From Chiloscyllium plagiosum (Eukaryota), in contig NC_057753.1 in assembly GCF_004010195.1 (NCBI RefSeq), positions 11,344,049 to 11,408,048 on the forward strand: DNA of 64,000 nucleotides, written 5' to 3'. Below the pieces are notes generated by a model. It ran no database searches and was not told where the DNA came from. It was given only the letters and a program-made list of their open reading frames with translations. Of this stretch, positions 16,011 through 64,000 are shown one piece after another. The translations under genes and the position numbers were made by a program. How positions within the stretch are numbered: the stretch's first letter is position 1; the number at the start of each line of letters is the position of its first letter.

Positions 16011-16682
16011 CGAGAAACGATGAAGCAGTTACACAACACACATTGGAGAGGGCAGGGTGGGACTTGTCTCTTGATTTCCAGAAGGTGGGAGGCTCTGGAT
16101 GCTGTGATCTAGGGCAAACACATGCTGGAGGACCTTTGGCTCAGAGAGATGGAGCTGGAAGCCAGGCTGCAGACACCTTGGAGGGGGGAAGTTAACCAGA
16201 CACTTTATTCCAGCAGACGGTTATTCCCCTCTGGATAGACCCTTCTGATGGGGTCAATGGACAGGGTCAGGAGGGTGTGGGCGCAAGTCAGGCAGGTAAA
16301 GGGCCTCTGAGCGAGGGCTGCACGTGGGTGGAGCTAACTGGCTTGGTGGTGGGAGTTAGACCAATGTTAGGATGGGGGAGGTGGTGGTAAGGGACAGAAT
16401 AATGACCGGGATTGTCTCTGTTCTCTGCAGTTGGCAGCAGGGGGCCAGATGGCGTCTGTGTCTTCTAGGAGAAAGTGAGGACTGCAGCTGCTGGAGATCA
16501 GATGTGTTTCCAGCATCACATTTTCAGTTGATTCCTGAAGAAGGGCTCATGCCTGAAACATTGATTCTCCTGCTCCTTGGATGCTGCCTGCTGCGCTTTT
16601 CCAGCAACACATTTTCAACTCTGGCATCTGTGTCTGTCTGGTACCAGGATTCAGGAAATGATGTGCTCAGGGCTGGAGAAGT

Positions 16683-17743
16683 CCTTTTATAGAATGATTT
16701 GGATATGAAAATAGGAGGTACAGTTAGTAAGTTTGTAGATGACACCAAAATTGGAGGTGTAGTGGACAGTGAAGAAAGTTACCTCAGATTACAACAGGAT
16801 TTTGATCAGATGGGCCAATGGGCTGAGGAGTGGCAGATGGGAGTTTCATTTAGATAAATGCGAGGTGCTGCATTTTTGGGAAAGCAAATCTTAGCATAAC
16901 TTATAATGGTGAGGTCCTAGGGAGTGTTGCTGAGCAAGGAGACCTTTAGAGTGCAGGTTCATAGCTTCTTGAAAGTAGAGTCGCAGGTAGATAGGACAGT
17001 GAAGAAGGTGTTCCTTTATTAGTCAGAGCATTGAGTATAGGTATTAGGATGTCATACCTTTTATTCCTGATGAAGGACTTTTGCCCGAAATGTCGATTTT
17101 GAAGCTCCTTGGATGCTGCCTGAACTGCTGTGCTCTTCCAGCACCACTAATCCAGTATTAGGATGTCATGTTGAGGCTGTACAGGACGTTGTTAGGCCAC
17201 TTTTGGAATATTATATGTAATTCTGGTCTTGTTTTTGGAAGGATGTTGTGAAACTTGAAAGGGTTCAGAAAAGATTTAGAAGGATGTTGCCAGGATTGGA
17301 GAATTTGACCTACAGGGAGAGGCTGAACAGGCTGGGGCTATTTTCCCTGGAGTGTCAGAGGCTGAGGGGTGACCTCATAGAGGTTTGTAAAATCGTGAGG
17401 AGCGTGGATAGGATAAATAGACAAAGTCTTTTCCCAGCGGTGGGGGAGTCCAGAACTAGAGGGCATGGGTTTAGGGTGAGAGGGGAAAAACATAAAAGGG
17501 ACCTAAGGGGCAACTTTTTCTCACACAGGGTAGTGCATGTATGGAATGAGCTGCTCGAGGAAGTGGTGGAGGCTGGTACAATTGTAACATTTAAAGGCAT
17601 TTGGATGGGTATATGAATAGGAAGGGTTTAGAGGGATATGGGCCGGGCGCTGGCAAGTGGGACTAGATTGGGTTGGGATATCTGGTCGGCATGGACGGGT
17701 TGGACCGAAGGGTCTGTTTCTGTGCTGTACATCTCTATGACTC
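16683..17743 (+). mobile_element. 5'-truncated CR1 LINE with 5-bp TSD GAAGT
   Basis: RT C-terminal ORF 17248-17616. GAAGT at 16678-16682 and 17744-17748. The paralogous empty site is at ~44055-44075 (-). Confidence 0.9.
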
Positions 17744-18724
17744 GAAGTGGGAAAGGGAGGTTGCAGCGGGTGTGGTCCAACAATGTCAGGAGGAGAGAGT
17801 CTGTGCTGAGGGCACATGAGAAGTTAGAAGCTACAAAGACAAAGCAGAACCTGAAAGCTCTGGGTGGCGCGGTGGCTCAGTGCTTAACAACTTTGGCATG
17901 TTCTCCCTCTTGTGACTGTGTGGATTACTTCAGGTCCTCCGGTTTGCTCCCACAGTTTAAATGTCTGCAGTTTCGGGTGGATCAGCCCTGCTCCAGTGTC
18001 CAGGAATGTGCAGGCTCGTGTGGGTTAGCCACGGGGAACTACAGGGCTGTCGGGTAATCAGGTGGGTCTGGGTGGGATGGTGTTTGGAAGGTTGTTGTGA
18101 ATTCAATGGGCTGAATGGCCTGTTGGGATTAAGTGATTCCACTGCCTTAGCGACATGTATATTGACCCATGATTGCCCCAAGTCTGCTATGGGAGGACTG
18201 GGTTTCAGTCACTGAGACGCTGACACTGGTCCTGGGGAAGTTAGACTTTGTGCTGTCTATCCCTCCACCCACTGCACCCCTTCCATTCTCTCTCTGCCAT
18301 CTCATTTTTTGTCACCCACCCCAGTCTTTCTCTTCTCTTTCCCCCCACATTCTGTCTCCATGTCCATTTTCTCTCTCTCTTATTCCCTCTCCCTTCTTCC
18401 ACCTCCACCCCCCCCCCCCCCCCCATTCCCGTCCTTTCTCTTGCCTCAAGCCCTTCTAAGAGACAGAGAATGGATGGTGGTTATTCTGCATGGGAGATGG
18501 GGGTGCATGAGAAATGGCTGATCGTTAAAATTGACAATAGCAAAAATGATAGTGATGTTTCTGAATATTATCAATTTTATAAAAAAGCTGCAGACAGCTT
18601 TCTGGAACTTGTTGAAATGTATGCAGTTAGGCCACGGTTGAGGACAGGCCGTAAGAGATGAATGGTCTACTCTTAGTCTTGTGAAATTGGTTTTGACTAT
18701 GTAGAAATAGAATCATAGAGTTTT

Positions 18725-19278
18725 GAGAAGACTTGTAGCTCAGGTTGAGGTTCTGTTTATAGGTTTGCTCGCAGAGCTGGAAGGTTCATTTCCAGACGTT
18801 TTGTCACCCTACTAGGTAACATCTTCAGTAGGCCTCAGGCGAAGCAGCCTGCATGATTCCTTTGTATTTTGTAAATGACATTAGTTTTGCTTGTTGTAAA
18901 AAAAAAACGCATAATAATTGTAACAAACAATGCTTTGGACAAACAGACAGAAAACTAGCCACCAGGATACATGAACACCAACTAGCCACAAAACGACCTG
19001 ACCCCCTCTCACTCATATCCTTACGTACAGATAAGGAAGGACACCACTTCAACTGGGACAACACATCCATCTTAGGACAAGCCAAACCGAGACACACACG
19101 AGAATTCCTAGAAGCATGGCATTCCACAGGAAATTACATTACCAACCCAAATATGTAAATAGAAAGCAGGAATCATGTACACTGCTTCATCTGATACCTA
19201 CTGAAGATGTTACCTAGTAGGGTGACGAAACATCTGGAAATGAACCTCCCAGCTCAGTGAACAAACCTACATAGAACC
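18725..19278 (+). mobile_element. Truncated Penelope-like element: GIY-YIG fragment between inverted pseudo-LTRs
   Basis: ORF 18853-19158 (GQTDRKLATRIHEH...LEAWH). 18745-18860 is the reverse complement of ~19169-19278. Hammerhead-like core at 19201. Confidence 0.85.
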
Positions 19279-19959
19279 ATAGAGTTAGAGAGCATGGAAA
19301 CAACCCGTCTGTCCGTGCTGACCAGATATCCTAAATTAATCTAGTGCCATTTGCTAGCACGTAGCCTATATCCCTCTAAACCTTCCTATTCACATACCCA
19401 TCTTTAATTTTACCAGCCTCCACTATTTTCCATGGCAGCATTCAATACACACACCAACCTATACGTGAAAACGTTGCCCCTTAGGTCCTTTTTGAATGTT
19501 TCCTCTAGTTCTGGACTCCCCCGCCCCAGGGAAAAAAAATCCTATCCATGACTCTCCATAAGGTCACCCCACAGCCTCCGACGCTCCAGGGGAAACAGCC
19601 CCAGCCTGTTCAGCCTCTCCCTGTAGCTCAAACCCTCCAACCCTGGCAACATCCTTGTAAATCTTTTCTAAACTCTTTTAAGTTTCACAACATCCTTCCT
19701 GATTAGTCAGTAATAGGCTGTGAACAATCTATATTGTTCAGGTGCTAAGACAGGGCTTTTCTGGAGGTGAATTAACTTTCACACTTTTTTTTTCTAATCC
19801 TTAGTACCTTTTTAAATCTTTCCTCCCCCTAACCCTGTGCCCTCTAGTTTGGGATTCCCCCTAACCCTGTGCCCTCTAGTTTGGGACTCCCCCTTCCCCT
19901 GAGGAAGAGACAGGCAAAAGGAGTGAGATGTGCAGTCACAGGGACAGAAACAATTGTGG

Positions 19960-20869: not shown

Positions 20870-22125
20870 AGTCGGTGAAATACAAGATCCGGAGATGCCG
20901 GTGTTGGACTGGGGTGTACAAGGTTAAAGATCATTCCTGAGGAAGGGCTCATGCCCGAAACGTCGATTCTCCTGCTCCCTGGACGCTGCCTGACCTGCTG
21001 CGCTTTTTCCAGCAACACATTTTCAGCCAGGTTAAAGATCACACGGCACCAGGTTATAGTCCCCAACAGGTTTCCCGATTCCTCCGCCCTCCTGCAAAAA
21101 TGCCATCCCGTATTCCCCGATTCCTCCGCCTCCGCCGTATCTGCTCCCTTGGAGGACCGGTTCCACCACAGAACACACCAGATGGCCGCCTCCTCCTCCT
21201 CCTCCTCCTTCAGAGACCGCAGTTTCCCTTCCCACGTGGTTAAAGATGCCCTCCGACGCATCTCGTCCACATCCCGCACCTCCGCCCTCACACCCCACCC
21301 CTCCAACCCGTAACGAGGACAGGACGCCCCCGGTGCTCACCTTCCACCCTGCAAACCTCCGCATAAACCAAATCATCCGCCGACATTTCCGCCACCTCCA
21401 AACAGACCCCACCCACCAGGGATATATTTCCCTCCCCACCCCTTTNNNNNNNNNNNNNNNNNNNNNNNNNNNNNNNNNNNNNNNNNNNNNNNNNNNNNNN
21501 NNNNNNNNNNNNNNNNNNNNNNNNNNNNNNNNNNNNNNNNNNNNNNNNNNNNNNNNNNNNNNNNNNNNNNNNNNNNNNNNNNNNNNNNNNNNNNNNNNNN
21601 NNNNNNNNNNNNNNNNNNNNNNNNNNNNNNNNNNNNNNNNNNNNNNNNNNNNNNNNNNNNNNNNNNNNNNNNNNNNNNNNNNNNNNNNNNNNNNNNNNNN
21701 NNNNNNNNNNNNNNNNNNNNNNNNNNNNNNNNNNNNNNNNNNNNNNNNNNNNNNNNNNNTGTCCCCATGACTTGTCCTACCTGCCTATCTTCTTTTCCAC
21801 CTATCCACTCCCCCTCCTCTCAACCTATCACCTTCATCCCACCTCCATCCACCCATTGTACTCATTGCTACCTTCCCTCCTCTCCTCCCTGACCTATCAC
21901 CTTCATCCCCATCCCCACTCACCTATTGTACTCTATGTTACTTTCTCCCCACCCTCCTCTCCTTTATCTCTCCACCCTTCAGGCACTCTGCCTGTATTCC
22001 TGATGAAGGGCTTTTGCCCGAAACATCGAGTTTACTGCTCCTTGGATGCTGCCTGAACTGCTGTTCTTTTCCAGCACCACTAATCCAGAACACTAGCTTT
22101 CGGAGCGTCGCTCTTTCATCAGTGG
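20870..22125 (+). mobile_element. Nested Penelope-like fragments and hammerhead cassettes spanning an assembly gap
   Basis: PLE-like translations (FRDRSFPSHVV, PPVLTFHP...IIRRHFRHLQTDP). Hammerhead motifs at 20937 (+), ~22000 (+) and 22092-22123 (-). Confidence 0.75.
21446..21759. other. Assembly gap (N)
   Basis: Run of N. Confidence 1.
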
Positions 22126-22879
22126 AGGAGCATCTTCTATGATGCTGCATTTCCTGCCTTCTGCCCTTCCCCCATTTGTTATCTTGATTTTAAACTTTTT
22201 CTTAAGTCAAATTTAATCTCATTTTAATCAGACTTGGTGTGCTATTAGCTTGTTTGTCAGACTAGTGTAAGACAAAATTTAAGGTGAAACTTCATTTCTG
22301 ATGAAGTCAGAGTTTGACATTGAATGCGCAGGTGTGAATACCATTAAGTTGTGAAAATAAATCAAGAGCTTGTGCCTTTAACAAAAAAAAAGCAGTTCAC
22401 TGATATTCATGGCTTTGTCTCATTTCAGGGTGCTGATTCAAGTCTGACCAACAAACCGTTTCATCCCATCACCCAATTTAATTAAAATCTTTTAGAAAAT
22501 AACTCTGGCAAGCTAAGATTTATCCAATTTATTTAAAAGATTTATTTATGTGTCAGTTGCTCTCCATGTGGTCTTCTCTGCATTGGGGAGACTGGACGCC
22601 AACTTGCGGAATGTTTGTGGAACACCTCTGGGACATCTGAACTAAATGATCCCACCGCCCGGTGGCTGAACACTTTAACTACCCCTCCCACTCAGACAAG
22701 GACATGAGTCCTGCGCTGCCTCCATCACCAAACTCAAGCTACCTGACACCTGAAGGAAGTACACTTCATCTTCTGTTATGGGACCCTCCAACACATGGGA
22801 TCAATATAGATTTCACCAGTTTCCTCATTTCCACTCTCTCCCTCCCGCTCCCCATTAACAAGCTTTAGTAATGGACTCA

Positions 22880-25800
22880 CCAAAGTATGGGATCTGGTAA
22901 TATTGCCATCTCTGATCATGCTCCAGTGTACCTCATGGTTAAGATTAAGGATGTTACAGTGGATTCAAGGTACTGGCGAATGGACCCCTTTATTCTCATG
23001 GACAGTAAGTTTGTGGAGTATTTTTCTAGGGAATTTCGGGCATTCCTAGACATAGGCTCGGTTGATAGCTCATCTGTTCTCTGGGAAACTGCCAAAGCTT
23101 ATGCCAGGGGGTTAGTTATTTCATATTCCACAAGTAGGAAGCGGCAGAAGGGTGAGCAGCAACGTCTCCTTGAAGCAAGGTTGAAGGCAGCTGAGAAGGC
23201 CAATTTTGACAGACCCTCGTTGGTCAAACTACAGAGGATTACGGCACTGCGGTCTGCACTAAATTTCGTGCACATGCAGATGGCAAAGAAGGAGCTGGCT
23301 TTTGAAAAGCAAAGGTTATATGAGCATGGTGACAAGCCAGGCAAATAATTAGCGTACCTTGCCAGAAAGAGAAATGCCCCACAAACCATTACAGCGATTA
23401 GGGAAGGGTCTGGGAACCTGACATGTGATTCTAAAAAGATTAATGTGGCGTTCCAGAGATTCTACTCTAAGTTATATCTGTCTGAGAATTGTGAGGAGGG
23501 ACAGGCCAAAATGGAATCCTTTTTTTAGAGATCTGAAGCTCCCGGGTATGACTCCCGAACAACAGTCCTTTCTCAATGCCCCATTATCACAGCAAGAAGT
23601 GCAGGAAGCTGTGAGGCAGCTTCAGAATGGAAAGGTGCCCGGTCCTGATGGACTTCCCAGTGAATTCTATAAGGAATTTATAAGTATACTGTCAGGCCCG
23701 ATGCTGAATATGTTTACTGATTCATACAGTCCTGGTTGTCTCCCACCATCTCTGAGAGAGGCCAATATTTCACTTATTCTTAAAAAAGGGAAGGATCCGG
23801 AAGACTGTGCTTCGTACAGGCCCATCTCGCTGTTAAATGTGGACTTTAAGATCCTCTGTAAGGCTCTAGCGTTAAGGCTGGAGACTGTGTTGCCCTCTAT
23901 TATTAAAGAGGATCAGACGGGCTTCATAAAGGGTCGCAGATCTTCTAATAACGTTAGGAGGCTGCTTAACGTAATTCAAGCCTGCCAACAGCAGTCAATA
24001 CAGGGATTGGTGATTTCTTTAGATGCAGAGAAGGCATTTGACCGAGTTGAGTGGCCATACCTTTTCTATACTCTAGACCGGTTTGGTCTGGGCGAAGTTT
24101 TCAAAAGATGGGTAAAGGTTCTCTACAGTGTACCTCTCGCTGCGGTAATTACCAACGGGGTACGATCAAGCAATTTTAATATTTCTCGGGGCAGCAGGCA
24201 GGACTGTCCCCTTTCACCATTATTTTTTACGTTGGTGATTGAACCGTTGGCAGAGGCCATTCGTGGGGATCTCAATATATCAGCTCCAGAAGTGGGGTCA
24301 AAATTACATAAGATCTCGCTGTATGCAGACGATGTTCTAATTTTCTTGACAAATCCATAAGTTTCAGCTGATACAATGCATTCACACGTTTGGTGCTTTT
24401 TCAGGGTATAAGATTAATTTTGCTAAATCAGAGGCTTTGCCTATGGGTGGTCTTACGAAAGACATGGCTCTTGAGAGTGACTATAGATTCCCATTTAGAT
24501 GGTCACAGGGGGGTTTTGTGTATTTGGGCATATTCATTTCTCCAGGGCTTCATTCCTGAAGAAGGGCTTATGCCCGAAACGTCGATTCCCCTGTTCCTTG
24601 GAAGCTGCCTGACCTGCTGCGCTTTTCCAGCAACACATTTTCAGCTCTGATCTCCAGCATCTGCAGTCCTCACTTTCTCCTCGGACATTAAAAATTACCA
24701 ATTAAGCTCGCTTTTAACCTACGTGAGTGATTGGGTTTGTGGGGACCCTTTTTCAATATGGCTAGATATCGAAGCCTCCCAGGCAAGGTGCCCCCTTACC
24801 AGTTTGCTGTTTTTGGACAAGATGAGTTAGGAAATATTGCCATAACCCAATAGTCATCAATACTGTTAAAGCATGGAGGGCAATTCGGCAGAGGGAACGC
24901 AATATTGGCAAAACATCTTTGTTTACACCTTTAGTGGGTATGCCGGGTTTTCAACCGGGTATGATAGATTCAGGATTTAAACGTTGGGCAGCTAGGAGTA
25001 TATCTTACATGGAGTATATCTTACATATATCATTCCTGAAGAAGGGCTTATGCCCGAAACATCAATTCTCTTGTTCCCTGGATGCTGCCTGACCTGCTGC
25101 GCTTTTCCAGCAACACATTTCCAGCTCTGTATATCTTACATGGGTGATTTATTTGAAGGAGATATAATGATGTCCTTCGATCAGTTAGTACGGAAGTACG
25201 AGTTACCTAATAGAGACCTCTTTCGTTTTTTTCAAGTTAGGGATTTTATTCAAAAAAAGACCACACTTTTGACTGATCCCTACAAATCTGACATAGGAAG
25301 AGGGGTACTAAGGGCTAAGAGTACACCCTCTGTCAGTACTTTATATCACCAATTGGGGGGTGCCACCTCAGATGAGTCTGATCGACTGTGCAAGATGTGG
25401 GAAAGACAGCTGGGTGTTGAAGTTTCTTCAGAGGCATGGGAGGATATTTGGGAGAATGCAAGGAAGATATCAATTTGCAATAGGACCCATGTTTTACAGT
25501 TGAAGATTCTCCACTTAGCCCCAGACTGTTTGTCAAAATTTAAACCAGGGGTATCTTCAGCATGTCGCAAGTGCAAGGTCTGCACGAGTACTCCTACCCA
25601 TTGTCTTTGGTCTTGTGACAGGCTTCAAACATATTGGAGCGCTGTGGTGGGTGCAATGGGGAGGATTTTAGGTTAGGGGTGGAGAAGGACCCTATTTCGC
25701 TCCTTTTGGGCCTACCCATTGTATTTCCTGCAGACTCGCATAAGAAAAAACCTTTCAATATTCTTACGTTCTGTGCAAGGAAGAATATCTTGCTCGGTTG

Positions 25801-27385: not shown

Positions 27386-29492
27386 GGCTACCAATCAAGA
27401 CCCTGGCAATTTCCACTTACTTCCAGCCTCTTGTCTCAAACGCCACTGGAATTGAAAGATTCCCTCTGAAATTTTATTTCACGTCAGTTCCGAACTTCAC
27501 TGTCGGTCAATGAATCTCTGTTCCCATTGTTACAATTCTGACAACCTTACAGAGGGGAGGGAGAAACTGGAGCCAATCCTTACATGGTCTAGATTTATTT
27601 CCAGAGCAAAACATGACAGGTGTATGCCAATTACGCCAGTTCATGCTGTGTCGGTCGGTTGCCCTTAGTATGATCAACCTTACCCATGTCGTCTTTTTCC
27701 CCAGGGATGGGGAATTGAAGACTAGAGGGGATCGGTTTGTGGTGAGAGGGGAAAGACTCAGGAAGGACCTGAAGGACAATCTCTTCACGCAGACGGTGAT
27801 ATGTGAAGTGGGTTGTCAGAGAAAGTGGTTGAGGCAGGTACAATAACAACATTTAAAAGGTATATGGATGGGTTTTTGGATCATAGAATCTCTACAGTGT
27901 GGAAACAGGCCCTTTGGCCCAAAGCATTCACACTGACTTCTGAAGAGTATCCCACCCAGACCCATTCCCCTATTACTCTACATCTACCTCTATAAGGGTA
28001 CCCTTCAGTTTCCACAGGAAAAACGTCCCAGTATATCCAGCCTCTCCCTATAACTCAAACTTTCCAGACCCGGTATCATCCGAGTAAATCTTTTCTGCAC
28101 CCTTTCTAGTTTAATGACATCTTTTCAATATTAGGGTGACCAGAACTGCAGGCAGTACTCTGAAAGTGGCCTCACCAACGTCTTGTAAAGCTGCAATAAG
28201 ATGTCCCAACTCCTGTACTCAATAAATACCAAGAAAACTGTACACTGGAAATCAGAAACAAAAACAGAAGCTGCTGAAAAAGCTCAGCAGGTCTACCAGC
28301 ACCTGTGGAGAGAAATCAGAGTTAACGTTTTGGGTCCAGTTTTGAGGAATGGTCACCGGACCCGAAACGTAAACTCTGATTTCTCTCCACGGGATGGTCC
28401 TACATTCAGCGCTCTGACCAGTGAAAGCAAGCATGCCGAAAGCCGTCTTTGCCGCCCTGTCTACCTCTGAGTCCACATTCAAAGAACTATACACCTGCAC
28501 CTCTAGGTCTCTAACAATTCATGTGTACATCCTGCCCCGGTTTGATCACCAAAATGCAACACGTTGCATTGATCTAAACTCCATCTACCATTCCTCAGTC
28601 CATGGCCCAGTTAGATTCATAGAGTAAGACAGCATGGAAACAGGCCCTTCGGTCCAAACTGGTCCATGGTGCCCACCCAGCTAGTTCCAATTAGAGTCAT
28701 AGAGATATACAGCGCAGAAGTAGACCCCATGTGTTAATGGTAGCTCTGCAACTTTGAGCCAGTCCACCCTTGTAAAGAAACTTAATGGAGATGAATGACT
28801 TTGATTTTTTTTAAAAATCTTGTCATCTCTCACAACAACTAGAGTTAGTAATCAGCTCCTTCTCTGATTTTATTCAAACTTATGGAGAGGTTTGGTTCAG
28901 TCTAAAGCTTTGGATACTTAACTGAATTCTGTTGGAATCTGACGTAAGTTATTAAGATTTCTTTGCTTCTGGCTGAAGGTTGCTGCGAGTGCCTCAGCCT
29001 GATCTTTTTGTGCTGATGTGCTGGGGTCTTCCATCATTGAGGATGGGGTTATTGGTGGAAGCCACCTCCTCCAATGAGTTGGTTAATTGTCCGCCACCAT
29101 TCATGACTGAATGGGGCAGGACTGCAGAGCTTAGATCTGATCCATTGGTTGTATTATTATTCACAATTTATACTGATGGTTTGGAGTTGGGGGCCATGGG
29201 TCGCAGGTCAAAGTTTGCAGGTGACACTAAGAAGAGTGGCAGAGTAAAATGTGCAGAGGACTGTGAAACTTTGCAGAGGAACATAGATGCTTTGAGTGAG
29301 TGGGCAAAGGGATACAATGTTAATAAATATGAAGTCATCCATTTTGATCGGAATAACAGTAATGACTTGATGGTAAAGAGTTGCAGCATGCTGCTGTGCA
29401 GAGGGACCTGCGTGTCCTTGTGCATGAATCAGAGGGTTGGTCTGCAGGTGCAACAGGTAATTAAGATGACAAATGGAATATTGTCCTTCATT

Positions 29493-32149: not shown

Positions 32150-32820
32150 AGAACTTGCAGAACTATTTTTGCAGATACATTTAATTTTGCTCGAAGTGCA
32201 CAATCTGCAGGCAGTCAATCCATTAATATTTTATAAATTCCTACTTTGGAAGTAGAACCAGTCTGACTCAACATTAGGAGAGAGACAGGCTCTAACCTCA
32301 CACCTTTAATACATCGCCTGAGCTGAAATGTCATCTTCAAGTTACGTCGAGAACGTTACCTTTAAGTAGTTCTGGGATTTACATATTAATGAACCAAAAC
32401 CCACAACCCATTCTAAAAGATGAAAGATGTAACAGCAATCTAGATTTGTTCAATTCAGTTGTCTGACATTAATTTTTTGCTACAAATTCTATGTCTTGTG
32501 ATCCTGCTCCACAGCTACCTGATGAAGGAGCAGCCCTCCGAAAGCTAGTGCTCCCAAATAACACCAGGTTATATTCCAACACATTTGTATGATTTTTAAC
32601 TTTGTTGCTCGTGAACACAGCCCACACCTCCCGCTGATGCCAGTAACCTTTACAATGCTGATGAAATGATGCAAAGATGAAAAACTTAAGTTTTAATTTT
32701 AATCCTGTGTCTTACGATCCTGCTCCACAGCTACCCAATGAAGGAGCAATGCTCCAAAACCTAGTGCTTCCAAATAAACCTGTTGAACCATAACCTGATG
32801 TTGTGTGACTTTTAATCTTT
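32150..32820 (+). mobile_element. Penelope-like 3' end with tandem pseudo-LTRs
   Basis: Mirror of 15265-15760. Intact hammerhead core at 32519-32547 and a degenerate second copy at ~32735. Confidence 0.7.
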
Positions 32821-33641
32821 GTTTCTCGGGAATATAACCCACACCTTCTGCCGCTGCCAGTAAACCTTACAATGCTGATGAAACAATGAACCTGCACTCC
32901 AGAAAAATTGACAATTTCTCAGGATTCTAGCTACTCATTCACTGCTCCTTCTGATACATGACATTGGAAAATTGGTGCTGGAGGTTGAAAGAAATTAGCA
33001 GCTTTAAAGAAACAAAAAACCTGTTGGATCTCACAGCTTTCAATGAGAGTCAGAGTCCGACAATGAATTCAAGTAACCTTTATTGCGACCCAATTTCATT
33101 ACAGCTTCAGATTTTCCCAGAAAAAAAAGGCGCACGAAAGCTAGCATTTTTTTTTAAAATAAAGCTCAAGGTCAAAGTGCACACACTCCCCATTCCCCCA
33201 ATTTCTTTACTATTGGTCAGCACCAAATGATCCCTTTGTTATTGGATCCTTGGTACAGCCTTCACCTGCAGGAAGTATTGCCTCACTCAGTAATTTCAGC
33301 CTACATACTGTATACAAGTTAGTTTCTCTAGCTCATTTGCAGGAGGGGGAGCTGCAATCAAGAGTCAACCACACTGCTGTGGGACTGGAGTCACACATAG
33401 GCCAGACTGGGTATAGGATGCAGCCGGGATGACTGAGTGAATCCTTTCCTGCAACAGCGGTTTCATTCTCTAAAAAGAACATGAGTGAATAAGATGCGTC
33501 TTTTCTTCCCCTGAAAATGGTTTCATTGATTCGGAACTGCAGATTTCAATTGCGCCATCTGCCATGGTGGGATTCGAACCTCGGACCTCCCCAGAACTGG
33601 GTTGAAAGTCTAATCGAAAATGGCACTTGTCCGTCGCTCCT

Positions 33642-39470: not shown

Positions 39471-39903
39471 CCAATAGGAAAGGCTCAGAGGGATATGGGC
39501 TAAACACAGGCAGGTGGGTATACTTTAGTTTGAGAACATAGTCAGCATGGTCAAGTCAGACTAAAGGGTTTGTTTTTGTAAAAGGTCTCCAAACCTTTTT
39601 CTTGCCTTCCCCTATAACCATCCACTTCTTTGTTGTTCAAAATTCAGATGAACTCAGCCTTGGATATATTCCATGACCCCCTAACTGCAGGAAGACATTC
39701 CCACTTCTCAACTCAATTACTCTTGCTAACAGACCACTTGCCTTGCTGATTGCTTGTTGCACCTGTCTGACAACTGGCAGTGACTGGTGTAGAAGGACAC
39801 CGAGGCCCCTTTGTACATCCACACACCATTCCTAATGAAGGGCTCGTGCCCATAACGTCAATTCTCCTGCATTTGCCTTGTGTTTTTCAACTGAGACACA
39901 GAC

Positions 39904-40085: not shown

Positions 40086-40380
40086 ACTCACCGATGTTGG
40101 ACAGAGGACGGAAGTTGCAGTCTGGGGTGAAGCTCAATCTTCATTCAGAGAGAGAGGAGCAGGAGCAGAAGCTCATGGACCAACTTCCGCATCCAGACTG
40201 TGGGTTTAATGTGATTGGCAGGAGGACCAGTCTCCATCCGGTCCTCCCATTGGTCCAGCGAAACAAAGTCGTGGGGCGTTTCCGTGTGTTACATGAGCAT
40301 GCGCAGTGTTTTGCTGACACCGAGTTGTGGCTGCTGACACCGAGTAGCATGCGCAGTATGGAGATGCTGGTATTACTGAC
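40086..40380 (-). promoter_or_regulatory. Promoter and first exon of ZNF-B (module copy 2)
   Basis: Two NRF1-like GCATGCGCA, two CCAAT, GCGGAAGT, ATG at 40144, donor CATCG|GTGAGT at 40092/40091. Confidence 0.75.
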
Positions 40381-40389
40381 AGATTTTCT

Positions 40390-42615
40390 AAGTTAAAAAT
40401 CACACACCGCCCAGGTTATAGTCCAATAGGTTTGTTTCAATCACTGGCGTTCGAAGCGCTGCTTCTTCATCGGATGGTTGTGGAGCATAATCATAAGACG
40501 CAGACATTACAGCAACAGGATTGCAGTGTCATGGAATGTAATATTAAACAAATTTAGCTCACATCTTTTAGAATGACCACTTTAATTTCGGATCCTTCTA
40601 ATGTAAATTCCAGCACTTTTTTTAAAGTTACATGCTCAAGACAGCCGAGATGACACATATTGTTAAAAGCTCAGATAATGCATTGAAGGTGTTAAGTTAA
40701 AGTCTGTCTTGTGTCCCAATGTTAGGTCAGACTGATTCTATTTCTAAAGTGATATTACAGAATCTTACGTGTATTTATGCAGTTTTTGAGCAAAATAAAA
40801 TGTAATTCTGCAAGTGCAAATTCATCCCATAAACTCAGGGAAACTGAGTGCATGGATGTGTGGGGGGTGTGCGCGCGTGTGTGAGTGTAATGGGGTATAA
40901 GTCTGTGACAGGGTGTGTGTGTGAGAGAGAGAGCATATGAGCGCTTGTGCATGAGAGAGGGTGTGTGAGTGTGTTGTTCTGGAGGAGCATGTGTTTGTGT
41001 GAGTGCGCACTTGTGTGCATGTGTGTGAGAGAGAGAGAAAGCATAATGTAGTGGGGTCACCTGGACCGTGACATGATCCCAAGGTCCCTGTTGAGGCCAT
41101 CCCCATGGGTACCAAATTTGGATATCAGCCTTTGCTCATCCACTTTCCATTGTTGCCTGTCCTGAAGTCCGCCTTGGAGGATAGTCACCCGAAGGTCCGA
41201 GGCTGAATGTCCTGGACTGCTGAAGTGTTCCTCAACTGGGAGGGGACACTCCTGCCTGGTGATTGTTGTGCAGTGTCCATTAATCTATTGCTGTAGCCTC
41301 TGCTCGGTCTCGTCAATATACCATGCCTCAGCACATCATTTCCTGCAGCACATGAGATAAACAATGTTAGCCGATTCACATGAGTACCGAGTAATCGTGT
41401 CGACTCTCTGACATGTCTTGCAGCATCTACCATGACAAGGTTGCATCATGTTGTCCTGAAGGCCAGGCAGTTTGCTGCAAACAATGATCTGTTTAAGGTT
41501 TGGCGGTTGTTTGAAGGCAAGACGTGGAGGTATGGGGAAGGTCTTGGTGAGGTGCTCATCCTCAATGATAATATGTTGCAGGCTGCAAAGAACATGGCGT
41601 GGTTTTTCAGCTCCCGAGAAGTACTGGACACAAAGGGTTGCAGCTTATGTCTGTCTCCTGAGGAGGTCATTACGATTTCTCACTGTGACACATTGGAACT
41701 GGCAGTTGATGAGTTGAGCATTGTACCCCGTTCTTATGAGAGCATGCTTGTGTACTTCCGAGTGTCTGTTACGTTCCTCCTCACCTGTATGTGAAGGGCT
41801 TGTCCATAGGGGATGGCTGTTTTAATATGTTTCGGGTGGAAGCTAGAGAAGTGTAGCATTGTCAGGTTATCCATGGGTTTGCGATACATGGAAGTGCTGA
41901 GATGCCCATCCTAGATAGAGATGCATGTGTCCAAGAATGAGACAGATACATGGTGAGTGTGATGGTGGGATGAAACTTGTTGGTATCACTGTGTGGTTGT
42001 TTCAGTGACTCCTCGCCATGGGTCCAGAGGAAGAAATGTTGTCAATATATCTGGTGTATAGTGTTGGTTGGAGGTCCTGTGCAGAAAAGAAGTCTTGTTT
42101 GAACCTATGCATGAAAATGTTGGCATACTGGGGTGCAAATTTGGTCCCCATGGCTGTTCCAGTTCTTCGTCCAGACACATGGTTGTCAAAGGTGAAAATG
42201 TTGTGGTCAAGGATGAAGCAGATATGTTGTAGGACAGTGTTCAGAGATTGGCGGTTGTTGGTATTGAGTACTGAGGCTGTCACCGTGATGCCATCATCGT
42301 GGGGAATGCTGGTGTAAAGTGCTGAAATGTCCATTGTGACAAAGAATATTCCTGATTCAACTCGTCCGTGGTAGCTGAGTTTCTGGTAGAAATCTGTAAT
42401 GTTGTGACAGAAGCTTGGGCCCCCCTGCACAATGGGTTTCAAGATGCCTTCAACATAGCCAGAGAAGTTCTCACACAGGGTCCCATGGCCTGATACACTG
42501 AATGTCCTAGTGTGTTGGCTTTGTGTATCTCCGAAAGGCAGTAGAAGTCGCTTTCGTGAGAATACGTGGGATGAGGGCATGTAGAGAACTCTGAAGGATT
42601 GGATCGAAAGTCTTA
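40390..42615 (-). mobile_element. Degenerate Penelope-like retroelement (RT, GIY-YIG region, 3' pseudo-LTR)
   Basis: ORF 42002-42664: FVTMDISALYTSIPH, GTAMGTKFAPQYANIFM, RYID(N)I, typical PLE RT motifs. Confidence 0.9.
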
Positions 42616-43305: not shown

Positions 43306-43377
43306 TAGCAGAAGATGCTTTCGATCCATCGACCTCTGGGTTATAGGCCCAGCAGACCTCCGCTGCACCACTCTGCT
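43306..43377 (-). tRNA. Initiator tRNA-Met-derived copy, probable pseudogene, anticodon CAT changed to TAT
   Basis: Minus strand reads AGCAGAGTGGTGCAGCGGAGGTCTGCTGGGCCTATAACCCAGAGGTCGATGGATCGAAAGCATCTTCTGCTA: 72 nt, 7 differences from the conserved vertebrate tRNAiMet as I recall it. Confidence 0.85.
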
Positions 43378-43939: not shown

Positions 43940-45400
43940 ACTACCCAGAGCTTTGAGGTTCTGTTTTGTATTTGTAGCTTCTACCTTCTCATGCGCCCTC
44001 ACCAGAGGCCCTCTCCTCCTGACATTGTTGGACCACACCCGCTGCAACCTCCCTTTCCCACTTCTCCAGCCCTGAGCACATCAGTTCCCGAATCCTGGCG
44101 CAGACAGATACCGATGCCATCTGGCCTCTGACCGCCAAGTGCAGAGATTGAAAACAATCCCTGTCACTATTCTGTCCCTTACTTCCCCCTCCCTGACATT
44201 GTTCTTACTCCCACCACCCAGCCAGTTAGCTCCTGCCCCCTTCAGCCCTCTGTCAGACTGCCTTTATCTGCTTGACCCAGGCTCACACTCTCCTGAACCT
44301 GTCCACTGACCCAATCAGAAGGCTCTGTCCGGAGGGAAAGACCATCTCCCAGAATTAAGTGTCTGCTTCCCCCCAACGTATCTGCAGTCTGGCTTCCAGC
44401 TCCATCTCTCTGAGCCGAAGGTCCTGAAGCATGTGTTTGCCCTGGATCACAGCATCTAGAGCCTCCCACCTTCTGCAAATCGAAAGACAAATCGCACCCA
44501 CCCCTCTCCACTGTGTTTTGTGTAACTGCTTCATCATTTCTAGTGGCCGAGCAGAGGCTGATAGGCAAGTTCGGAACCCAGGAGGATGGCCTCAACCGGG
44601 ACCGTGAGCTCATGTTACACTACAGGTGATCCTGCTACACTGTACACATTCTCCCTCTCACACACACACACAGTCTTGCACACTCATACACTCACGCAGA
44701 CCCTCTCTCAGATGCATACACACATACACCCCCCACACTCTCACCCACGCACACACCCTCTCACAGGCTTATACTCCTTCACAGATGGAAATGTGTTGCT
44801 GGAAAAGCGCAGCAGGTCAGGCAGCATCTAGGGAACAGGAGAATCGACGTTTCGGGCATTAGCCCTTCTTCCTGAAGAAGGGCTAATGCCCGAAACGTCG
44901 ATTCTCCTGTTCCCTAGATGCTGCCTGACCTGCTGCGCTTTTCCAGCAACACATTTCCATCTCTGATCTCCAGCATCTGCAGACCTCACTTTCTCCTATA
45001 CTCCTTCACACTCACACTTTACCAAGCATGTACACATGCAAACACACGCTCTCTCACATGCACTCACACGAATGCACACACTCACTCACTCTCTCGCATG
45101 CACACGTACATATAAGTCTATGGGGTGAATTTGCACTTACAGATACATTCTATTGTGTGATTTTTGAGCCCAATTTGCAGGCACTCAATCCATTTAATAT
45201 TTTATAAATTCCATATTTGGAAACAAAACCAGTCTGACTCAAGACAGACTCTTACCTCACATCTTTCATGGCATTGTCTGAGCCAAGATGTCACGTCTTT
45301 TTATAAAACCTTAAGTAATCTCCAGACTGTGACTTTAAAGAGGTTCTGGGATTTATATATCAATGAACTGAAACCTGCAATCTATTCTAGAAGATGACAG
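43940..45400 (-). repeat. Paralogous copy of the ZNF-A downstream flank (~15540-17870) with no finger exon
   Basis: ORF 44242-44613 mirrors 15959-16195; 43945-44110 mirrors 17745-17865 and 16630-16680. Confidence 0.85.
44783..44996 (+). mobile_element. Palindromic hammerhead cassette (inverted PLE pseudo-LTR dimer) with 14-bp TSD
   Basis: 89-bp arms 44783-44871 and 44874-44962. TATACTCCTTCACA at 44770-44783 and 44997-45010. Confidence 0.92.
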
Positions 45401-47930: not shown

Positions 47931-47943
47931 CTAACTTATTCTT

Positions 47944-48268
47944 CGAGGAGAAAGTGAGGACTGCAGATGCTGGAGATCAGAGCTGAAAATGTGTTGCTGG
48001 AAAAGCGCAGCAAGTCAGGCAGCATCCAAGGAACAGGAGAATCGACGTTTCGGGCATAAGCCCTTCTTCAGGAATGTTCATTAAAACATAATCAAGTTTA
48101 AAGATTTAATATCATGCATGTACACTATCTTTGCCCCTCATAATATCTTATCCTTCTAAAGAAGTCCTTCAAAAATTCCTGAAGAAGGGCTTATGCCCGA
48201 AACGTCGATTCTCCTGTTCCTTGGATGCTGCCTGACCTGCTGCGCTTTTCCAGCAATACATTTTCAGC
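47944..48268. mobile_element. Inverted hammerhead-cassette dimer enclosing a captured 101-bp local sequence; 14-bp TSD
   Basis: TCTAACTTATTCTT at 47930-47943 and 48269-48282. Spacer 48075-48175 is identical to 48441-48541. Confidence 0.9.
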
Positions 48269-48629
48269 TCTAACTTATTCTTTACCTGCTCAAATAATCC
48301 TAACAGATTAATCAGACAATGACCTCCTCTTGTCAAAGCTGTGCAGACTCAGTCCTGTTTTACCACGCAATAAATACTTTGCACTCTTACCCTTCATAAT
48401 GTCTGTTCAGTTTACACATTTTACCATAAAGAAGCTGTTCTGTTCATTAAAACATAATCAAGTTTAAAGATTTAATATCATGCATGTACACTATCTTTGC
48501 CCCTCATAATATCTTATCCTTCTAAAGAAGTCCTTCAAAAAGATTAGCACAAGGTATGAAACTGTGCGACTGCATCAAGTAAAGGAGTTAGTAAGAATGA
48601 GAAAGGAGCAGCTAAATATCTAAACCTAC

Positions 48630-51364: not shown

Positions 51365-52110
51365 GAGTCTTGGAAGAGGGAGTCGAAGGGTGGGTCAGTA
51401 AATTTGCAGACGATACGAAGATTGGTGGAGTTGTGGATAGTGCGGAGGGCTGTTGTCAGCTGAAAAGGGACTTAGATATGATGCAGAGCCGAAAATGTGT
51501 AGCTGGAAAAGCGCAGGTCAGGCAGCATCCAGGGAACAGGAGAATCGACGTTTCGGGCATAAGCTCTTCTTCAGATATGATGCAGAGCTGGGCTGAGGAG
51601 TGGCAGATGGAGTTCCACCCTGTCAAGTGTGAGGTTGTCCATTTTGGAAGGACAAATAAGAATGCGGAATACAGGGTTAATGGTAGGGTTCTTAGTAAGG
51701 TCTACGTTCATAGATCTTTGAAAGTTGCCACTCAGGTGGATAGAGCTTGTAAGAAGGCCTATGGTGTATTAGCATTCATTAGCAGAGGGATTGAATTCAA
51801 GAGTCGTGATGATCAGAGGCATAGATAGAGTAGACAGTCAGAAACTTTTTCCCCGGGCACAACCGAGTGTTACAAGGGGACATAAATTTAAGGTGAAGGG
51901 TGGAAGGTATAGGGGAGATGTCAGGGGTGGGTTCTTTACCCAGACAGTGGTGGGGGCATGGAATGCGCTGCCTGTGGGAGTGGCAGAGTCAGAATCATTG
52001 GTGACCTTTAAGCGGCAATTGGATAGGTACATGGATGGGTGCTTAAGCTAGGACAAATGTTCAGCACAACATCATGGGCTGAAGGGACTGTTCTGTGCTG
52101 TATTGTTCTA
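51365..52110 (+). mobile_element. CR1 LINE RT/3' fragment with an inserted hammerhead cassette (51490-51572, -)
   Basis: SKFADDTKIGG. TSD AGATATGATGCAGAGC at 51474 and 51573. Confidence 0.88.
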
Positions 52111-57234: not shown

Positions 57235-58149
<915 letters not shown>

Positions 58150-58157
<8 letters not shown>

Positions 58158-60774: not shown

Positions 60775-60901
60775 TGTTTAGATCAGAGTGTTGCTGGAAA
60801 AGCACAGCAGGTCAGGCAGCATCCGAGGATCAGGAAAATCGAAGTTTCGGGCAAAGGTCCTTCATCAGGAAGAGAGGGGGGCGGAGATGACGACCTGGGG
60901 G

Positions 60902-60936
<35 letters not shown>

Positions 60937-61145
60937 AAGAAAGAGAGACTTCTTCAAGGCAGGCATCCTTGCAAGAGGATTCGCAGTAGGGTTAAAATCA
61001 ACTAGGTAAAAACAAGGATTGCAGATGCTGGAAACCAGAGTCTGGATCAGAGTGGTGCTGGAAAAGCACAGCAGGTCAGGCAGCATCCGAGGGGCAGGAA
61101 AATCGACGTTTCGGGTAAAAGCCCTTCAATCAGGAAGATGCAGGA
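60775..61145 (-). mobile_element. Tandem (direct) dimer of the hammerhead cassette with internal spacer
   Basis: Two cassettes 264 nt apart. Flanking AGACCAA(A/G)TCAACCGT at 60759-60774 and 61146-61161. Confidence 0.8.
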
Positions 61146-61650: not shown

Positions 61651-62277
61651 ACTGTTCATTTGTAGCAGCTCGGTAAAAACAATGACTGCAGATGCTGGAA
61701 ACCAGAATCTGGATCAGAGTGGTGCTGGAAAAGCACAGCAGGTCAGGCAGCATCCAAGGGAGAGTATTAATGCAGTTGTTGAACTGCATCCGCTGCAGCC
61801 GGTGTGGCCTCCTCTATATTGGGGAGACAGGCCGCCTACTTGCGGAGCGATTCAGAGAGCACCTCTGGGCCACCCGGACGAACCAACCCAACCACCCTGT
61901 GGCACAGCATTTCAACTCCCCCTCCCACTCCACCGAGGATATGCAGGTCATTGGACTCATCCACCGCCAAACCACAACAACCCGACGGTCGGAGGAGGAG
62001 CGTCTTATCTTCCGACTGGGAACCCCCCAACCGCAGGGGATGAACTTGGACTTCACCAGTTTCTTCATCCCCCCTCCCCCCACCTTGTCTCAGCCGGATC
62101 CTTCCAGCCCGGCACCGCCTTCCTGACCTGCAGTCTTCTTCTTGACCTCTCCGCCTCCACCCTACTCCGACCTATCACCCTCACCTTGACCTCTTTCCAC
62201 CTATCACATTTCCAACGCCCCTCCTCCAAGCCCCTCCTCCCTACCTTTTATCTTCTCCTGCTGAACACTCTCTGCTC

Positions 62278-62313
62278 ATTCCTGAAGAAGGGCCTGTGCC
62301 CGAAACGTCGAAT
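62278..62313 (+). ncRNA. Minimal type-I hammerhead ribozyme motif (best-preserved copy)
   Basis: ATTC-CTGAAGA-A-GGGC(CTGT)GCCC-GAAACGTC-GAAT: stem I ATTC/GAAT, both core boxes, stem II, and palindromic ACGT in place of stem III. Confidence 0.8.
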
Positions 62314-62379
62314 CTCCTGTTCCCTGGATGCTGCCTGACCTGCTGTGCTGTTCCAGCAATAAAGTTTCAACTTTGATAT

Positions 62380-62831
62380 NNNNNNNNNNNNNNNNNNNNN
62401 NNNNNNNNNNNNNNNNNNNNNNNNNNNNNNNNNNNNNNNNNNNNNNNNNNNNNNNNNNNNNNNNNNNNNNNNNNNNNNNNNNNNNNNNNNNNNNNNNNNN
62501 NNNNNNNNNNNNNNNNNNNNNNNNNNNNNNNNNNNNNNNNNNNNNNNNNNNNNNNNNNNNNNNNNNNNNNNNNNNNNNNNNNNNNNNNNNNNNNNNNNNN
62601 NNNNNNNNNNNNNNNNNNNNNNNNNNNNNNNNNNNNNNNNNNNNNNNNNNNNNNNNNNNNNNNNNNNNNNNNNNNNNNNNNNNNNNNNNNNNNNNNNNNN
62701 NNNNNNNNNNNNNNNNNNNNNNNNNNNNNNNNNNNNNNNNNNNNNNNNNNNNNNNNNNNNNNNNNNNNNNNNNNNNNNNNNNNNNNNNNNNNNNNNNNNN
62801 NNNNNNNNNNNNNNNNNNNNNNNNNNNNNNN
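62380..62831. other. Assembly gap (N)
   Basis: Run of N. Confidence 1.
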
Positions 62832-64000
62832 GTCGAATCTCCTGTTCCCTGGATGCTGCCTGACCTGCTATGCTGTTCCAGCAATAAAGTTTCAACTTTG
62901 ATCTCCAGCATCTGCAGACCTCACTTTCTCCTCAGAGTATTAATGCAAGGGAAGTGAGATTCTCGCTCACAAGGTTTTCAGATCCTCGTGGCATTTATCA
63001 GGACTGGAACTTGAGAAGAGTCGGAGATATGTCTAGTGTTATTCAATGGTTCAATATTCAATGTGCTATTCGTGGTTCTCTAAGATTCGGTTATGATTAT
63101 TTGTTGTAATATTGTATTGTAGCTATGTCACATATTTCTAATTATACTATTATTGAAGGGGATGGTAAGTGGGCATTGGACAGAGAGCCACAGAGATGTC
63201 CAACATGGAAACAGATCCTTTGGTCTAACTCGTTCACGCTGACCAGATATTCTGGATAAATCTGGTCCCATTTGCCTGCACTTGTCCCATATCCCTCTAA
63301 ACGCTTGCTAAGTCGTACACCCATCCAGATGCCTTTTTAATGTTGTAATTGTACCAACCTCCACTATTTATCTGGCAGATCACTCTGTATACATTGAGTA
63401 TATTCATCATGAGGGAAGAAGCGATTTCTGAACCTGTTGGTGTGTGCGTTCAAGATCCTGTATCTTCTGCCTGACCGAAGAGGTTGTAAGAGGGCAGTAC
63501 CAGAGTGGGAGGGGACTTTGATGATGTTGGCAACCTTTCTGCGGCAACATTGGTCACATCCTGACAACGAGGGCCTACACATTATCCCTGTTTCGGGTTG
63601 TCAACCCTGCCAGTAATTTGTTCTCAGTTTTGTGGGCTTGGACTCTACGTTAGCAGCCTCTCAGAGACTTTATCAAATGCCTTCTGAACATACATATATA
63701 CAACATACATAGACATTCCCCAATGCAGCACCTTAGCCACCTAGGGCATCACAGTAGCTCAGCACTGCCACTCACAGCACCAGGGCCCCAGGTTTGATCC
63801 CACTCTCAGGCGATTGTGCACATTCTCCTGTGTCTGTGTGGGCTTCCTCCGAGAGGTCAAAGTTTCTCCCAGAGTCCAAGGTGGAGTCATAGAGATGTAC
63901 AACATGGAAACAGGTCCAACCCGTCCATGCCAACCAGATATCCCAACCCAATCCAGGCCTACCTGCCAGCACTCAGCCCATATCCCTCCAAACCCTTCCT

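What the first reader, a model, noticed from the sequence alone, without database searches (positions are those of the whole stretch)
16531..62933. About 20 minimal hammerhead-ribozyme motifs in short mobile PLE-derived cassettes, from at least three families
Seen: a ~100-140 bp cassette with TTC-CTGANGA-A-GGGC-N4-GCCC-GAAACGTC-GA(A/T)T. Intact cores at 20937, 24556, 44872, 48179, 62282 (+) and ~48040-48074 (-). Degenerate copies near 4765, 16533, 17066, 22000, 25036, 39830, 51545, 60840 and 61105. The loop varies (TCAT, TTAT, TAAT, CTGT, TTTT) while stem II is mostly kept. Family 2: CTGATGA-AGGAG..CTCC-GAAAGCTA (32519; 22092-22123 -). Family 3: CTGAAGA-TGTTACC..GGTGAC-GAAAC (19201, inverted copy ~18790-18830). 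A possible fourth is at ~28320-28378. Established: Penelope-like elements carry minimal type-I hammerheads with a palindromic ACGU/AGCU in place of helix III, thought to work as dimers. Inference: many copies here have no RT or endonuclease sequence yet have their own TSDs, so they may be a non-autonomous, retrozyme/SINE-like family in sharks.
Basis: partly seen in the sequence, partly recalled or inferred. Interest (0 to 1): 0.78.

Follow-up and report, generated by a model that had tools for sequence, protein, structure and literature searches.

The report
Penelope retroelement stubs carrying minimal hammerheads
The self-cutting-RNA motifs are real but sit in short end-pieces of ordinary, very abundant Penelope-type jumping genes, and their sharp shared start point and mirror-image pairing likely record how the full-length element copies the front of its own RNA, not a separate small mobile element.

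Summary
Observation confirmed: 11 hammerhead core + stem II motifs (chance 0.24), 7 complete minimal hammerheads, and 31 pieces of four families in the window. The 'non-autonomous retrozyme/SINE family' reading is not supported. Families 1 and 2 are the pseudo-LTR ends of autonomous Neptune-type Penelope-like elements (RT + Zn linker + GIY-YIG); families 1-3 have coding remains upstream in this window. In 1.33 Mb sampled genome-wide, 248 family-1 pieces show: 112 of 218 5' ends within 8 nt of the core's first base (the -8..0 stop rate is 21 times the upstream rate), none enriched at the cut site; two 3' start sites; and 66 head-to-head pairs. Of 55 classifiable pairs, 50 combine one arm of each site, and pairs typically sit inside one 15-16 bp TSD. 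Short and long copies share every sizeable subfamily, and short cassettes form no tandem arrays. Best model: RT primes inside the 5' pLTR of the full-length RNA and runs off its 5' end, often from both target strands. The ingredients are published, and this scan noted the same pattern before, in this and other genomes. Ribozyme activity is untested.

The parts
61773..62099 (+). GIY-YIG endonuclease coding remnant of the family-1 autonomous element
   Evidence: tblastn 92% aa identity to the L190 protein; translation; Pfam GIY-YIG E 0.009, below the curated cutoff
62100..62377 (+). end of ORF, 3' UTR and family-1b cassette; intact core at 62282, helix I 4 bp, ends near site 1 at an N gap
61672..61759 (-). 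inverted pLTR arm with tail at the 5' end of the 61773-62377 copy
62832..62931 (+). family-1b cassette piece with tail, directly after an N gap (5' end censored)
20980..22085 (+). decayed family-1c copy: RT-thumb/linker remains, N gap, 3' UTR, cassette at 22000 (helix III palindrome broken)
20931..21027 (+). short family-1a cassette, intact core at 20937, ends at site 1, 13-bp TSD, inserted into a family-2 copy (20891-20933 and 21031-21073, minus strand)
24550..24680 (+). short family-1a cassette, intact core at 24556, with tail (site 2)
25030..25129 (+). short family-1a cassette, site 1, 15-bp TSD, helix III palindrome broken
44779..44996 (.). head-to-head pair: minus arm ends at site 1, plus arm (intact core 44872) ends at site 2; 14-bp TSD; folds as one long hairpin
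47947..48271 (.). head-to-head pair with ~100-nt spacer: minus arm (core 48071) with tail, plus arm (core 48179) without; 14-bp TSD
16468..16623 (.). unit of an inverted tail-only piece (16468-16502) and a degenerate plus cassette (16531-16623); 14-bp TSD
17060..17158 (+). short family-1d cassette, stem II broken, 15-bp TSD
51484..51580 (-). short family-1a cassette, stem II mismatch, 16-bp TSD
60787..60877 (-). degenerate family-1 cassette, site 1
61005..61136 (-). degenerate family-1 cassette with tail
39827..39869 (+). degenerate family-1 5' fragment
32410..32821 (+). family-2 3' UTR with intact core at 32519 (helix III AGCU, helix I 3 bp) and a second, degenerate head-to-tail copy (32688-32821)
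40359..42496 (-). decayed family-2 autonomous copy: RT and endonuclease remains, CA-rich 3' UTR, degenerate hammerhead
15257..15526 (-). family-2 3' UTR plus degenerate cassette with tail
22087..22122 (-). family-2 hammerhead fragment
18900..19278 (+). family-3 copy: open frame resembling a Penelope/Poseidon endonuclease C-terminus (motif recalled), then hammerhead 19201 with 7-bp stem II and broken palindrome
18712..18861 (-). inverted family-3 pLTR arm with tail
28245..28402 (.). family-4 head-to-head pair, cores degenerate

Best explanation
The cassettes are the hammerhead-bearing pseudo-LTR ends of abundant, autonomous Penelope-like retroelements, and the short copies are likely run-off cDNAs made from the front of the full-length element's RNA. 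Shown: the family-1 cassette is both the 3' end of RT-endonuclease copies and, in a partial tandem, the sequence directly before the ORF. Copies end at two fixed 3' sites about 35 nt apart and mostly begin a few bases before the hammerhead core. Inferred: transcription starts at that point. The protein binds the two-site region, which occurs at both ends of the RNA. Priming at the 3' occurrence gives ordinary 5'-truncated copies; priming at the 5' occurrence reaches the RNA end after 95-130 nt and leaves a stub. The endonuclease likely nicks both target strands about 15-16 bp apart, and each strand likely primes at a different one of the two sites, which gives head-to-head pairs with a tail on one side. 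The template is likely uncut RNA; the inserted stubs are predicted to be inert.
For: Autonomous partner: ORFs with RVT_1 above cutoff and GIY-YIG just below cutoff end in the cassette. The CX4CxxC linker matches the Neptune/Nematis Zn-finger-like motif (PMC8557442, passages). L204 is a partial tandem of 3425-bp unit in which cassette + tail run into the ORF start. 5' ends: 112 of 218 uncensored copies at -8..+8; stop rate 0.093/nt at -8..0, against 0.0044 at -230..-9 and 0.007 at +9..+39; 0.005 around the cut site. Families 2 and 4 repeat the pile-up (29 of 68 and 31 of 66 at -12..+8). Pairs: 66, of which 50 are site 1 + site 2, 4 site 1/1, 1 site 2/2, 7 site 2 + shorter arm and 4 censored; p about 8e-11 against random pairing; family 2 gives 12 of 13. 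TSD of 10 bp or more in 43 of 61 pairs (control 5 of 183, mode 15-16) and 15 of 45 solo stubs (control 2 of 135). Short and long copies share subfamilies. In vitro, a lizard PLE cuts and extends both strands, starts RT at two internal sites that define the tail, makes shorter products from 5'-shortened RNA, and uses uncut RNA (PMC11167929, parts 1-2 of 4 read). The D. virilis and Adineta pLTRs carry the promoter or Inr-like motifs (PMC2377424 and PMC3846280, passages).
Against: The RNA start is not measured; the two read lays show no place where many molecules begin or end. The extra-G cap signature is weak in my sample: 9 of 14 at -4, but only 3 of 6 unambiguous cases, p 0.19. Family 3 has a TATA-like sequence upstream yet no pile-up (1 of 27). 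The 5' ends spread over about 16 nt, not one base. In vitro, the lizard protein showed no difference in start site between the two strands, so the strict one-of-each pairing is not explained by that paper. Seven pairs with an arm shorter than site 1 fit fold-back synthesis better. Family-4 pairs could not be classified cleanly (4 same-site, 2 mixed, 1 short of 7; site boundary uncertain). End positions come from local alignment to only four reference copies.
Confidence: 0.72

Rival explanations
1. Non-autonomous amplification: ORF-less copies (stubs with an internal promoter, or 200-500 bp truncated copies that keep the upstream promoter) are themselves transcribed and mobilised in trans, as a SINE-like or retrozyme-like family.
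For: Stubs outnumber long copies (120 against 46), have discrete ends and their own TSDs. pLTR sequences suffice for mobilisation in trans in Adineta (PMC3846280, passage). A 2026 preprint derives animal retrozymes from pLTRs (10.64898/2026.07.22.740005, parts 1-3 of 5 read).
Against: No short-only subfamily among clusters of 11 or more; label test not significant. Pair junction distances vary from -10 to 248 nt, so pairs are not copied as a unit. No tandem arrays of short cassettes: 10 same-strand neighbours under 400 nt among 248 copies, 9 of them involving a long copy. Stubs lack the upstream TATA-like region. The test cannot exclude many truncated copies each acting as a minor source.
Confidence: 0.14
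2. The stop is structural, not a transcript end: RT stalls or folds back on its own cDNA at the hammerhead (or, as proposed in 2013, self-primes on an antisense template), producing both the stubs and the palindromes.
For: The stop coincides with the 5' edge of the motif in three families. Junctions often show microhomology and near-perfect palindromes. 7 pairs have a very short inverted arm. Self-priming on an antisense template was proposed in PMC3846280 (passage).
Against: RT moving 3' to 5' should stall at the 3' side of a structure, but ends lie at its 5' side. The monomer fold is weak (z between 0.3 and -1.0). Site 1 is also used by 52 solo copies, so it behaves as a start site, not a fold-back end point. 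Family 3 has a stronger stem II and no stop.
Confidence: 0.11
3. The stubs are products of ribozyme self-cleavage or circular RNA intermediates.
For: Core, stem II, palindromic helix III and a short helix I are kept across families with different sequences. Two copies co-fold through the palindrome. One contig of a related run joins the cut position back to the cassette start (table 5c; single record).
Against: Stubs contain the whole core upstream of the cut, and 5' ends are not enriched at the cut site (7 ends at +25..+31, rate 0.005/nt). Minimal hammerheads cleave poorly even as dimers (PMC4209133, Results read). 8 of 9 Xenopus dimers did not cleave. Cleavage was dispensable for insertion in vitro.
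Confidence: 0.03

Closest known systems
Minimal hammerheads (min-HHR) in pLTRs of metazoan Penelope-like elements (Cervera and De la Pena 2014, PMC4209133; abstract, Results, Discussion read; 2 supplements searched, 1 not readable)
   Same: CUGAnGA/GAAA core, one extra base before stem II, G-C closing pair, palindromic helix III, short helix I; mostly single motifs from truncated PLEs; opposite-strand pairs; reported in Neptune and Poseidon of fishes
   Different: Stem II is 4 bp and helix I often only 2 bp in family 1. Density is far higher: 70 complete motifs in 1.33 Mb, about 190,000 if extrapolated, against 4,000-9,000 reported for coelacanth and Xenopus with a different descriptor. Sharks are not named in the searched supplements.
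Neptune-clade EN+ Penelope-like elements and their complex insertions (Craig et al. 2021 PMC8557442; Arkhipova et al. 2013 PMC3846280; passages read)
   Same: RT, Zn-finger-like linker, C-terminal GIY-YIG; partial tandem; inverted 5' pLTR; 30-40 bp tail at one end; TSD
   Different: Here most insertions are reduced to the hammerhead-to-tail stretch, with a sharp 5' stop and 15-16 bp TSDs. The passages read give neither the stop nor the 50-of-55 site pairing as numbers, and the 2013 paper favours antisense self-priming.
Anolis Poseidon element PAc (Frangieh et al. 2024, PMC11167929; parts 1-2 of 4 read)
   Same: Two internal RT start sites downstream of the hammerhead defining the tail; both target strands cut and extended; uncut RNA as template
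   Different: Different clade. In family 1 the long reading frame opens after the tail, not at stem II. No strand preference for start sites was seen in vitro, whereas the genomic pairs here use one of each.
Non-LTR (animal) retrozymes (preprint 10.64898/2026.07.22.740005, parts 1-3 of 5 read; PMC7229834, search listing only)
   Same: Short, non-coding, pLTR-related, type-I hammerhead
   Different: Defined as head-to-tail tandem units, each with a hammerhead; here the copies are solo or head-to-head and share subfamilies with autonomous copies.

Membership tests
Minimal type-I hammerhead of PLEs | Conserved core CUGAnGA...GAAA...UH around stem II | tested here: met
   11 motifs against 0.24 by chance; 7 complete against 0.02
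Minimal type-I hammerhead of PLEs | Palindromic positions 15.2/16.2 allowing a dimeric helix III | tested here: met
   ACGU in families 1, 3, 4 and AGCU in family 2; co-fold pairs through it in 2 of 3 segments' minimum-energy dimers and as part of the third
Minimal type-I hammerhead of PLEs | Helix I of 4-5 bp | tested here: inconclusive
   4 bp in 6 of 17 intact family-1b copies, 3 bp in family 2, only 2 bp in 24 of 33 intact family-1a copies
Minimal type-I hammerhead of PLEs | Self-cleavage as a dimer or with protein help | not testable with these tools
   No assay; read lays show no end at the site but cannot test it
EN+ Penelope-like element, Neptune clade (families 1, 2) | Single ORF with RT and C-terminal GIY-YIG | tested here: met
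   L190 and L196: RVT_1 above cutoff, GIY-YIG 21.2-21.5 bits against cutoff 22.6; family 2 RT and EN remains by tblastn
EN+ Penelope-like element, Neptune clade (families 1, 2) | CX2-5CxxC linker before the endonuclease | tested here: met
   Seen in the translations; motif from PMC8557442. It is shared with Nematis.
EN+ Penelope-like element, Neptune clade (families 1, 2) | RT phylogeny placing it in Neptune rather than Nematis | not tested
   No tree with reference PLEs was built; the preprint reports Neptune and Poseidon as the vertebrate groups
EN+ Penelope-like element, Neptune clade (families 1, 2) | pLTR, partial tandem, inverted 5' copy, one-sided tail | tested here: met
   L204 tandem; 66 pairs, 50 with tail on one side
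Non-LTR retrozyme | Head-to-tail tandem units, each with a complete hammerhead | tested here: not met
   No short-cassette array among 248 copies; the one family-2 tandem in the window has a broken second core
Non-LTR retrozyme | Circular RNA from double self-cleavage | not testable with these tools
   Only poly(A) single-cell reads and contigs were available
SINE-like non-autonomous family | Own lineage with diagnostic changes, distinct from autonomous copies | tested here: not met
   Five of five clusters with 11 or more members mix short and long copies; 70 of 300 shuffles reach the observed clustering
SINE-like non-autonomous family | Discrete length and own TSDs | tested here: met
SINE-like non-autonomous family | Independent transcription from an internal promoter | tested here: inconclusive
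   94% of 2408 laid reads run on into unlike sequence on both strands, as expected for read-through

The most novel reading that the evidence does not exclude
These several hundred thousand stubs are a genomic record of the missing steps of Penelope integration. One RNA, held by a protein dimer, is copied from two staggered start sites onto both nicked target strands; both cDNAs run off the capped 5' end just before the hammerhead and are joined head to head. This would explain the inverted pLTR with a one-sided tail from a sense template, without antisense self-priming. It would also map the promoter of Neptune elements to the hammerhead's first bases, with Neptune and Poseidon families differing in whether they prime at the 5' copy.
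Probability: 0.45. Interest if true: 0.55.

Novelty: new member of a known kind. Interest (0 to 1): 0.32.

Why it matters
As a ribozyme or new-element discovery it is ordinary: minimal hammerheads in PLE ends, their scattered single copies and opposite-strand pairs were described in 2014. Its value is as a very large natural data set on an unresolved step of PLE transposition. The sharp 5' stop and the one-of-each use of the two RT start sites give direct predictions for the existing in vitro PLE assay, and they separate sense-template twin priming from antisense self-priming. It also shows that these motifs should not be counted as active ribozymes or retrozymes when annotating such genomes.

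Tried and rejected
Rfam scan: no hammerhead family; the miRNA hits are artefacts of the palindromic pairs. Cleavage-made 5' ends: no enrichment at +25..+31; several apparent cases are microhomology with the inverted arm. A hidden different upstream sequence behind the 'stop': only 2 of 48 solo stubs share an adjacent flank. Extra G from the cap: suggestive overall, not significant in unambiguous cases. Arms of a pair are the same subfamily (median distance 0.046 against 0.166) but not closer than the nearest other copy (0.036), so this does not separate one template from two. Spacer origin in 14 pairs: mixed, one copied from nearby DNA, several being element sequence or two unrelated neighbours. 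The first family 2-4 end maps were distorted by inverted arms, masking and family-1 contamination of family 4, and were redone, where 6 of 68 family-2 alignments still missed the cassette. No RNA holder listed on record. Two read lays gave no start or end pile-up and cannot test a start site or cut; X21 and X22 laid nothing. Folding z-scores of monomers are unremarkable. Literature searches that found no description of the stop or of shark PLE stubs: (open-licence library only; Repbase/Dfam and subscription journals not searched; one supplement of PMC4209133 unreadable, bioRxiv supplements closed).

Full report
1. Observation. A descriptor for CUGAnGA, stem II and GAAA finds 11 motifs, including all six family-1 cores, family 2 at 32519 and family 3 at 19201. 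100 Markov controls give a mean of 0.24. With the palindromic helix III and H17 base, 7 remain against 0.02. The full catalogue has 31 pieces of four families, and 7 insertion units carry 13-16 bp TSDs. Rfam has no matching hammerhead model at E up to 1. The window is not special: 139 stretches of 10 kb at round coordinates on the 30 largest contigs (1.327 Mb without N) hold 248 family-1 pieces after 7 family-4-like hits were dropped from 255. That is 187 per Mb against about 300 per Mb here. They also hold 70 complete minimal motifs against 0-1 in each of 5 controls. Extrapolated, this is roughly 650,000 pieces and 190,000 complete motifs.

2. The cassettes are ends of autonomous elements. 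Upstream of 62282 lies a GIY-YIG frame preceded by an inverted cassette arm. Related loci at 99% identity extend it into RT. L190 and L196 score RVT_1 above cutoff and GIY-YIG just under it and carry the Zn-finger-like linker that marks Neptune/Nematis (PMC8557442, passages). L204 is a partial tandem: a truncated copy ending in cassette plus tail runs straight into the ORF start, and the unit ends 3425 bp later in a second cassette without tail (the frame is interrupted and has an N gap). So the cassette is both the last and the first stretch of the element. Family 2 has the same organisation, with a decayed RT-EN copy in the window at 42496-40359. Family 3 follows a frame that resembles a Poseidon endonuclease end (recalled motif). 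No coding partner was sought for family 4, which shares family 1's downstream motif.

3. Length distribution. Positions are given relative to the first C of the core. Of 218 family-1 copies with an uncensored 5' end and a 3' end at +70 or beyond, 112 start at -8..+8 (79 at -8..0). The stop rate is 0.093 per base at -8..0, 0.0044 at -230..-9, 0.007 at +9..+39 and 0.005 around the predicted cut. Upstream of the stop, truncation is an ordinary continuum. 3' ends fall at two sites, about +76..+96 and +125/126 (89 copies). Families 2 and 4 repeat the 5' pile-up (29 of 68, 31 of 66). Family 3 does not (1 of 27).

4. Pairs. 132 of 248 copies form 66 head-to-head pairs: 50 combine one arm of each 3' site, 4 are site 1/1, 1 is site 2/2, 7 have a shorter arm and 4 are censored. 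Solo copies use both sites about equally (52 and 61), so random pairing is rejected (p about 8e-11). Family 2 gives 12 of 13; family 4 is unclear. One TSD, mode 15-16 bp, flanks the whole pair in 43 of 61 cases (control 5 of 183); 15 of 45 solo stubs have one (control 2 of 135). If transcribed, a pair folds into one long hairpin that buries the motif.

5. Is there a separate non-autonomous family? Among 166 copies covering the cassette (120 short, 46 long), all five clusters with 11 or more members contain both kinds. Nearest-neighbour label agreement is 0.636 against 0.594 in shuffles, reached by 70 of 300. There is no tandem array of short cassettes. The retrozyme definition (tandem units; preprint read) is not met, and neither is the own-lineage criterion of a SINE. 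Occasional mobilisation of truncated copies in trans is not excluded.

6. Mechanism. In vitro, a lizard PLE cuts and extends both target strands, starts RT at two internal sites that define the tail, yields shorter products from 5'-shortened RNA, and mainly uses uncut RNA (PMC11167929). PLE promoters lie in the pLTR (PMC2377424, PMC3846280; passages). Here the stop sits on an Inr-like sequence in families 1 and 4 (consensus recalled), with a TATAAA 38 nt before the core in family 2 and a weaker T-rich motif at -36 in family 1 (read from the sequences). I infer that the RNA starts there, that priming at the 5' copy of the two-site region runs off after 95-130 nt, and that both target strands prime, one per site. 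Against this: the start is unmeasured, the extra-G signal is weak (9 of 14; 3 of 6 unambiguous), family 3 has a TATA-like motif but no stop, seven pairs fit fold-back better, and the in vitro study saw no strand bias. RNA data do not decide it. 2408 single-cell reads laid on a family-1a stretch come from both strands, and 94% run on into unlike sequence; no start or end pile-up was listed. Depth falls from about 300 on the cassette to 5 or less in the ORF start. Ribozyme activity is untested. Conservation of the architecture across families suggests selection in source elements, but helix I is only 2 bp in the commonest subfamily, and published minimal motifs cleave weakly.

7. Comparison and novelty. 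Minimal hammerheads in Neptune and Poseidon pLTRs, scattered single copies and opposite-strand pairs are in PMC4209133; inverted pLTRs with a one-sided tail are in PMC8557442 and PMC3846280. I did not find the 5' stop or the strict site pairing in the searched open library, which omits Repbase, Dfam and subscription journals. Earlier notes of this scan reached the same reading on other stretches of this genome and in other genomes; my reading was formed before that call, and those notes are not independent evidence. Verdict: new members of a known kind, real and above chance, with a modest mechanistic lead. Interest 0.32.

Noticed in passing
window 13380-14432 (+), 33642-35189 (-), 57260-59298 (-): Three arrays of 84-bp C2H2 zinc-finger repeats; open frames of 300, 465 and 377 aa. 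The 57260-58150 part looks broken and holds a PLE endonuclease fragment at 58149-57830.
   Followed up: no
window 20891-21073; L010; L138; L028: Family-1 copies repeatedly sit in or next to family-2 sequence, and in L028 a family-2 arm lies head-to-head before a long family-1 copy: possible target preference or template switching between families.
   Followed up: no
window 22540-22853 (+): Another PLE endonuclease remnant with no cassette after it.
   Followed up: no
window 43306-43377 (-): tRNA-like Rfam match just above the gathering score, probably a SINE head.
   Followed up: no
L204:2072-2083 (run X3): Contigs of a related organism join several ORF positions, the tail end, and once the predicted cut position back to the cassette start; likely genomic insertions or tandems, circles not excluded.
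   Followed up: no
L190 (oriented 2686-3203): A 120-bp unit repeated about four times in frame at the 5' end of a truncated family-1 ORF.
   Followed up: no
window 739-1144, 7903-8202 and 9333-9632: Local duplications (203-bp tandem; 300 bp at 98% identity, 1430 apart next to a 69-bp tandem); could be assembly overlaps.
   Followed up: no
random sample, family 3 versus families 1, 2, 4: The Poseidon-like family lacks the 5' stop and is seldom paired (5 of 29), unlike the other three: a possible clade difference in priming.
   Followed up: partly
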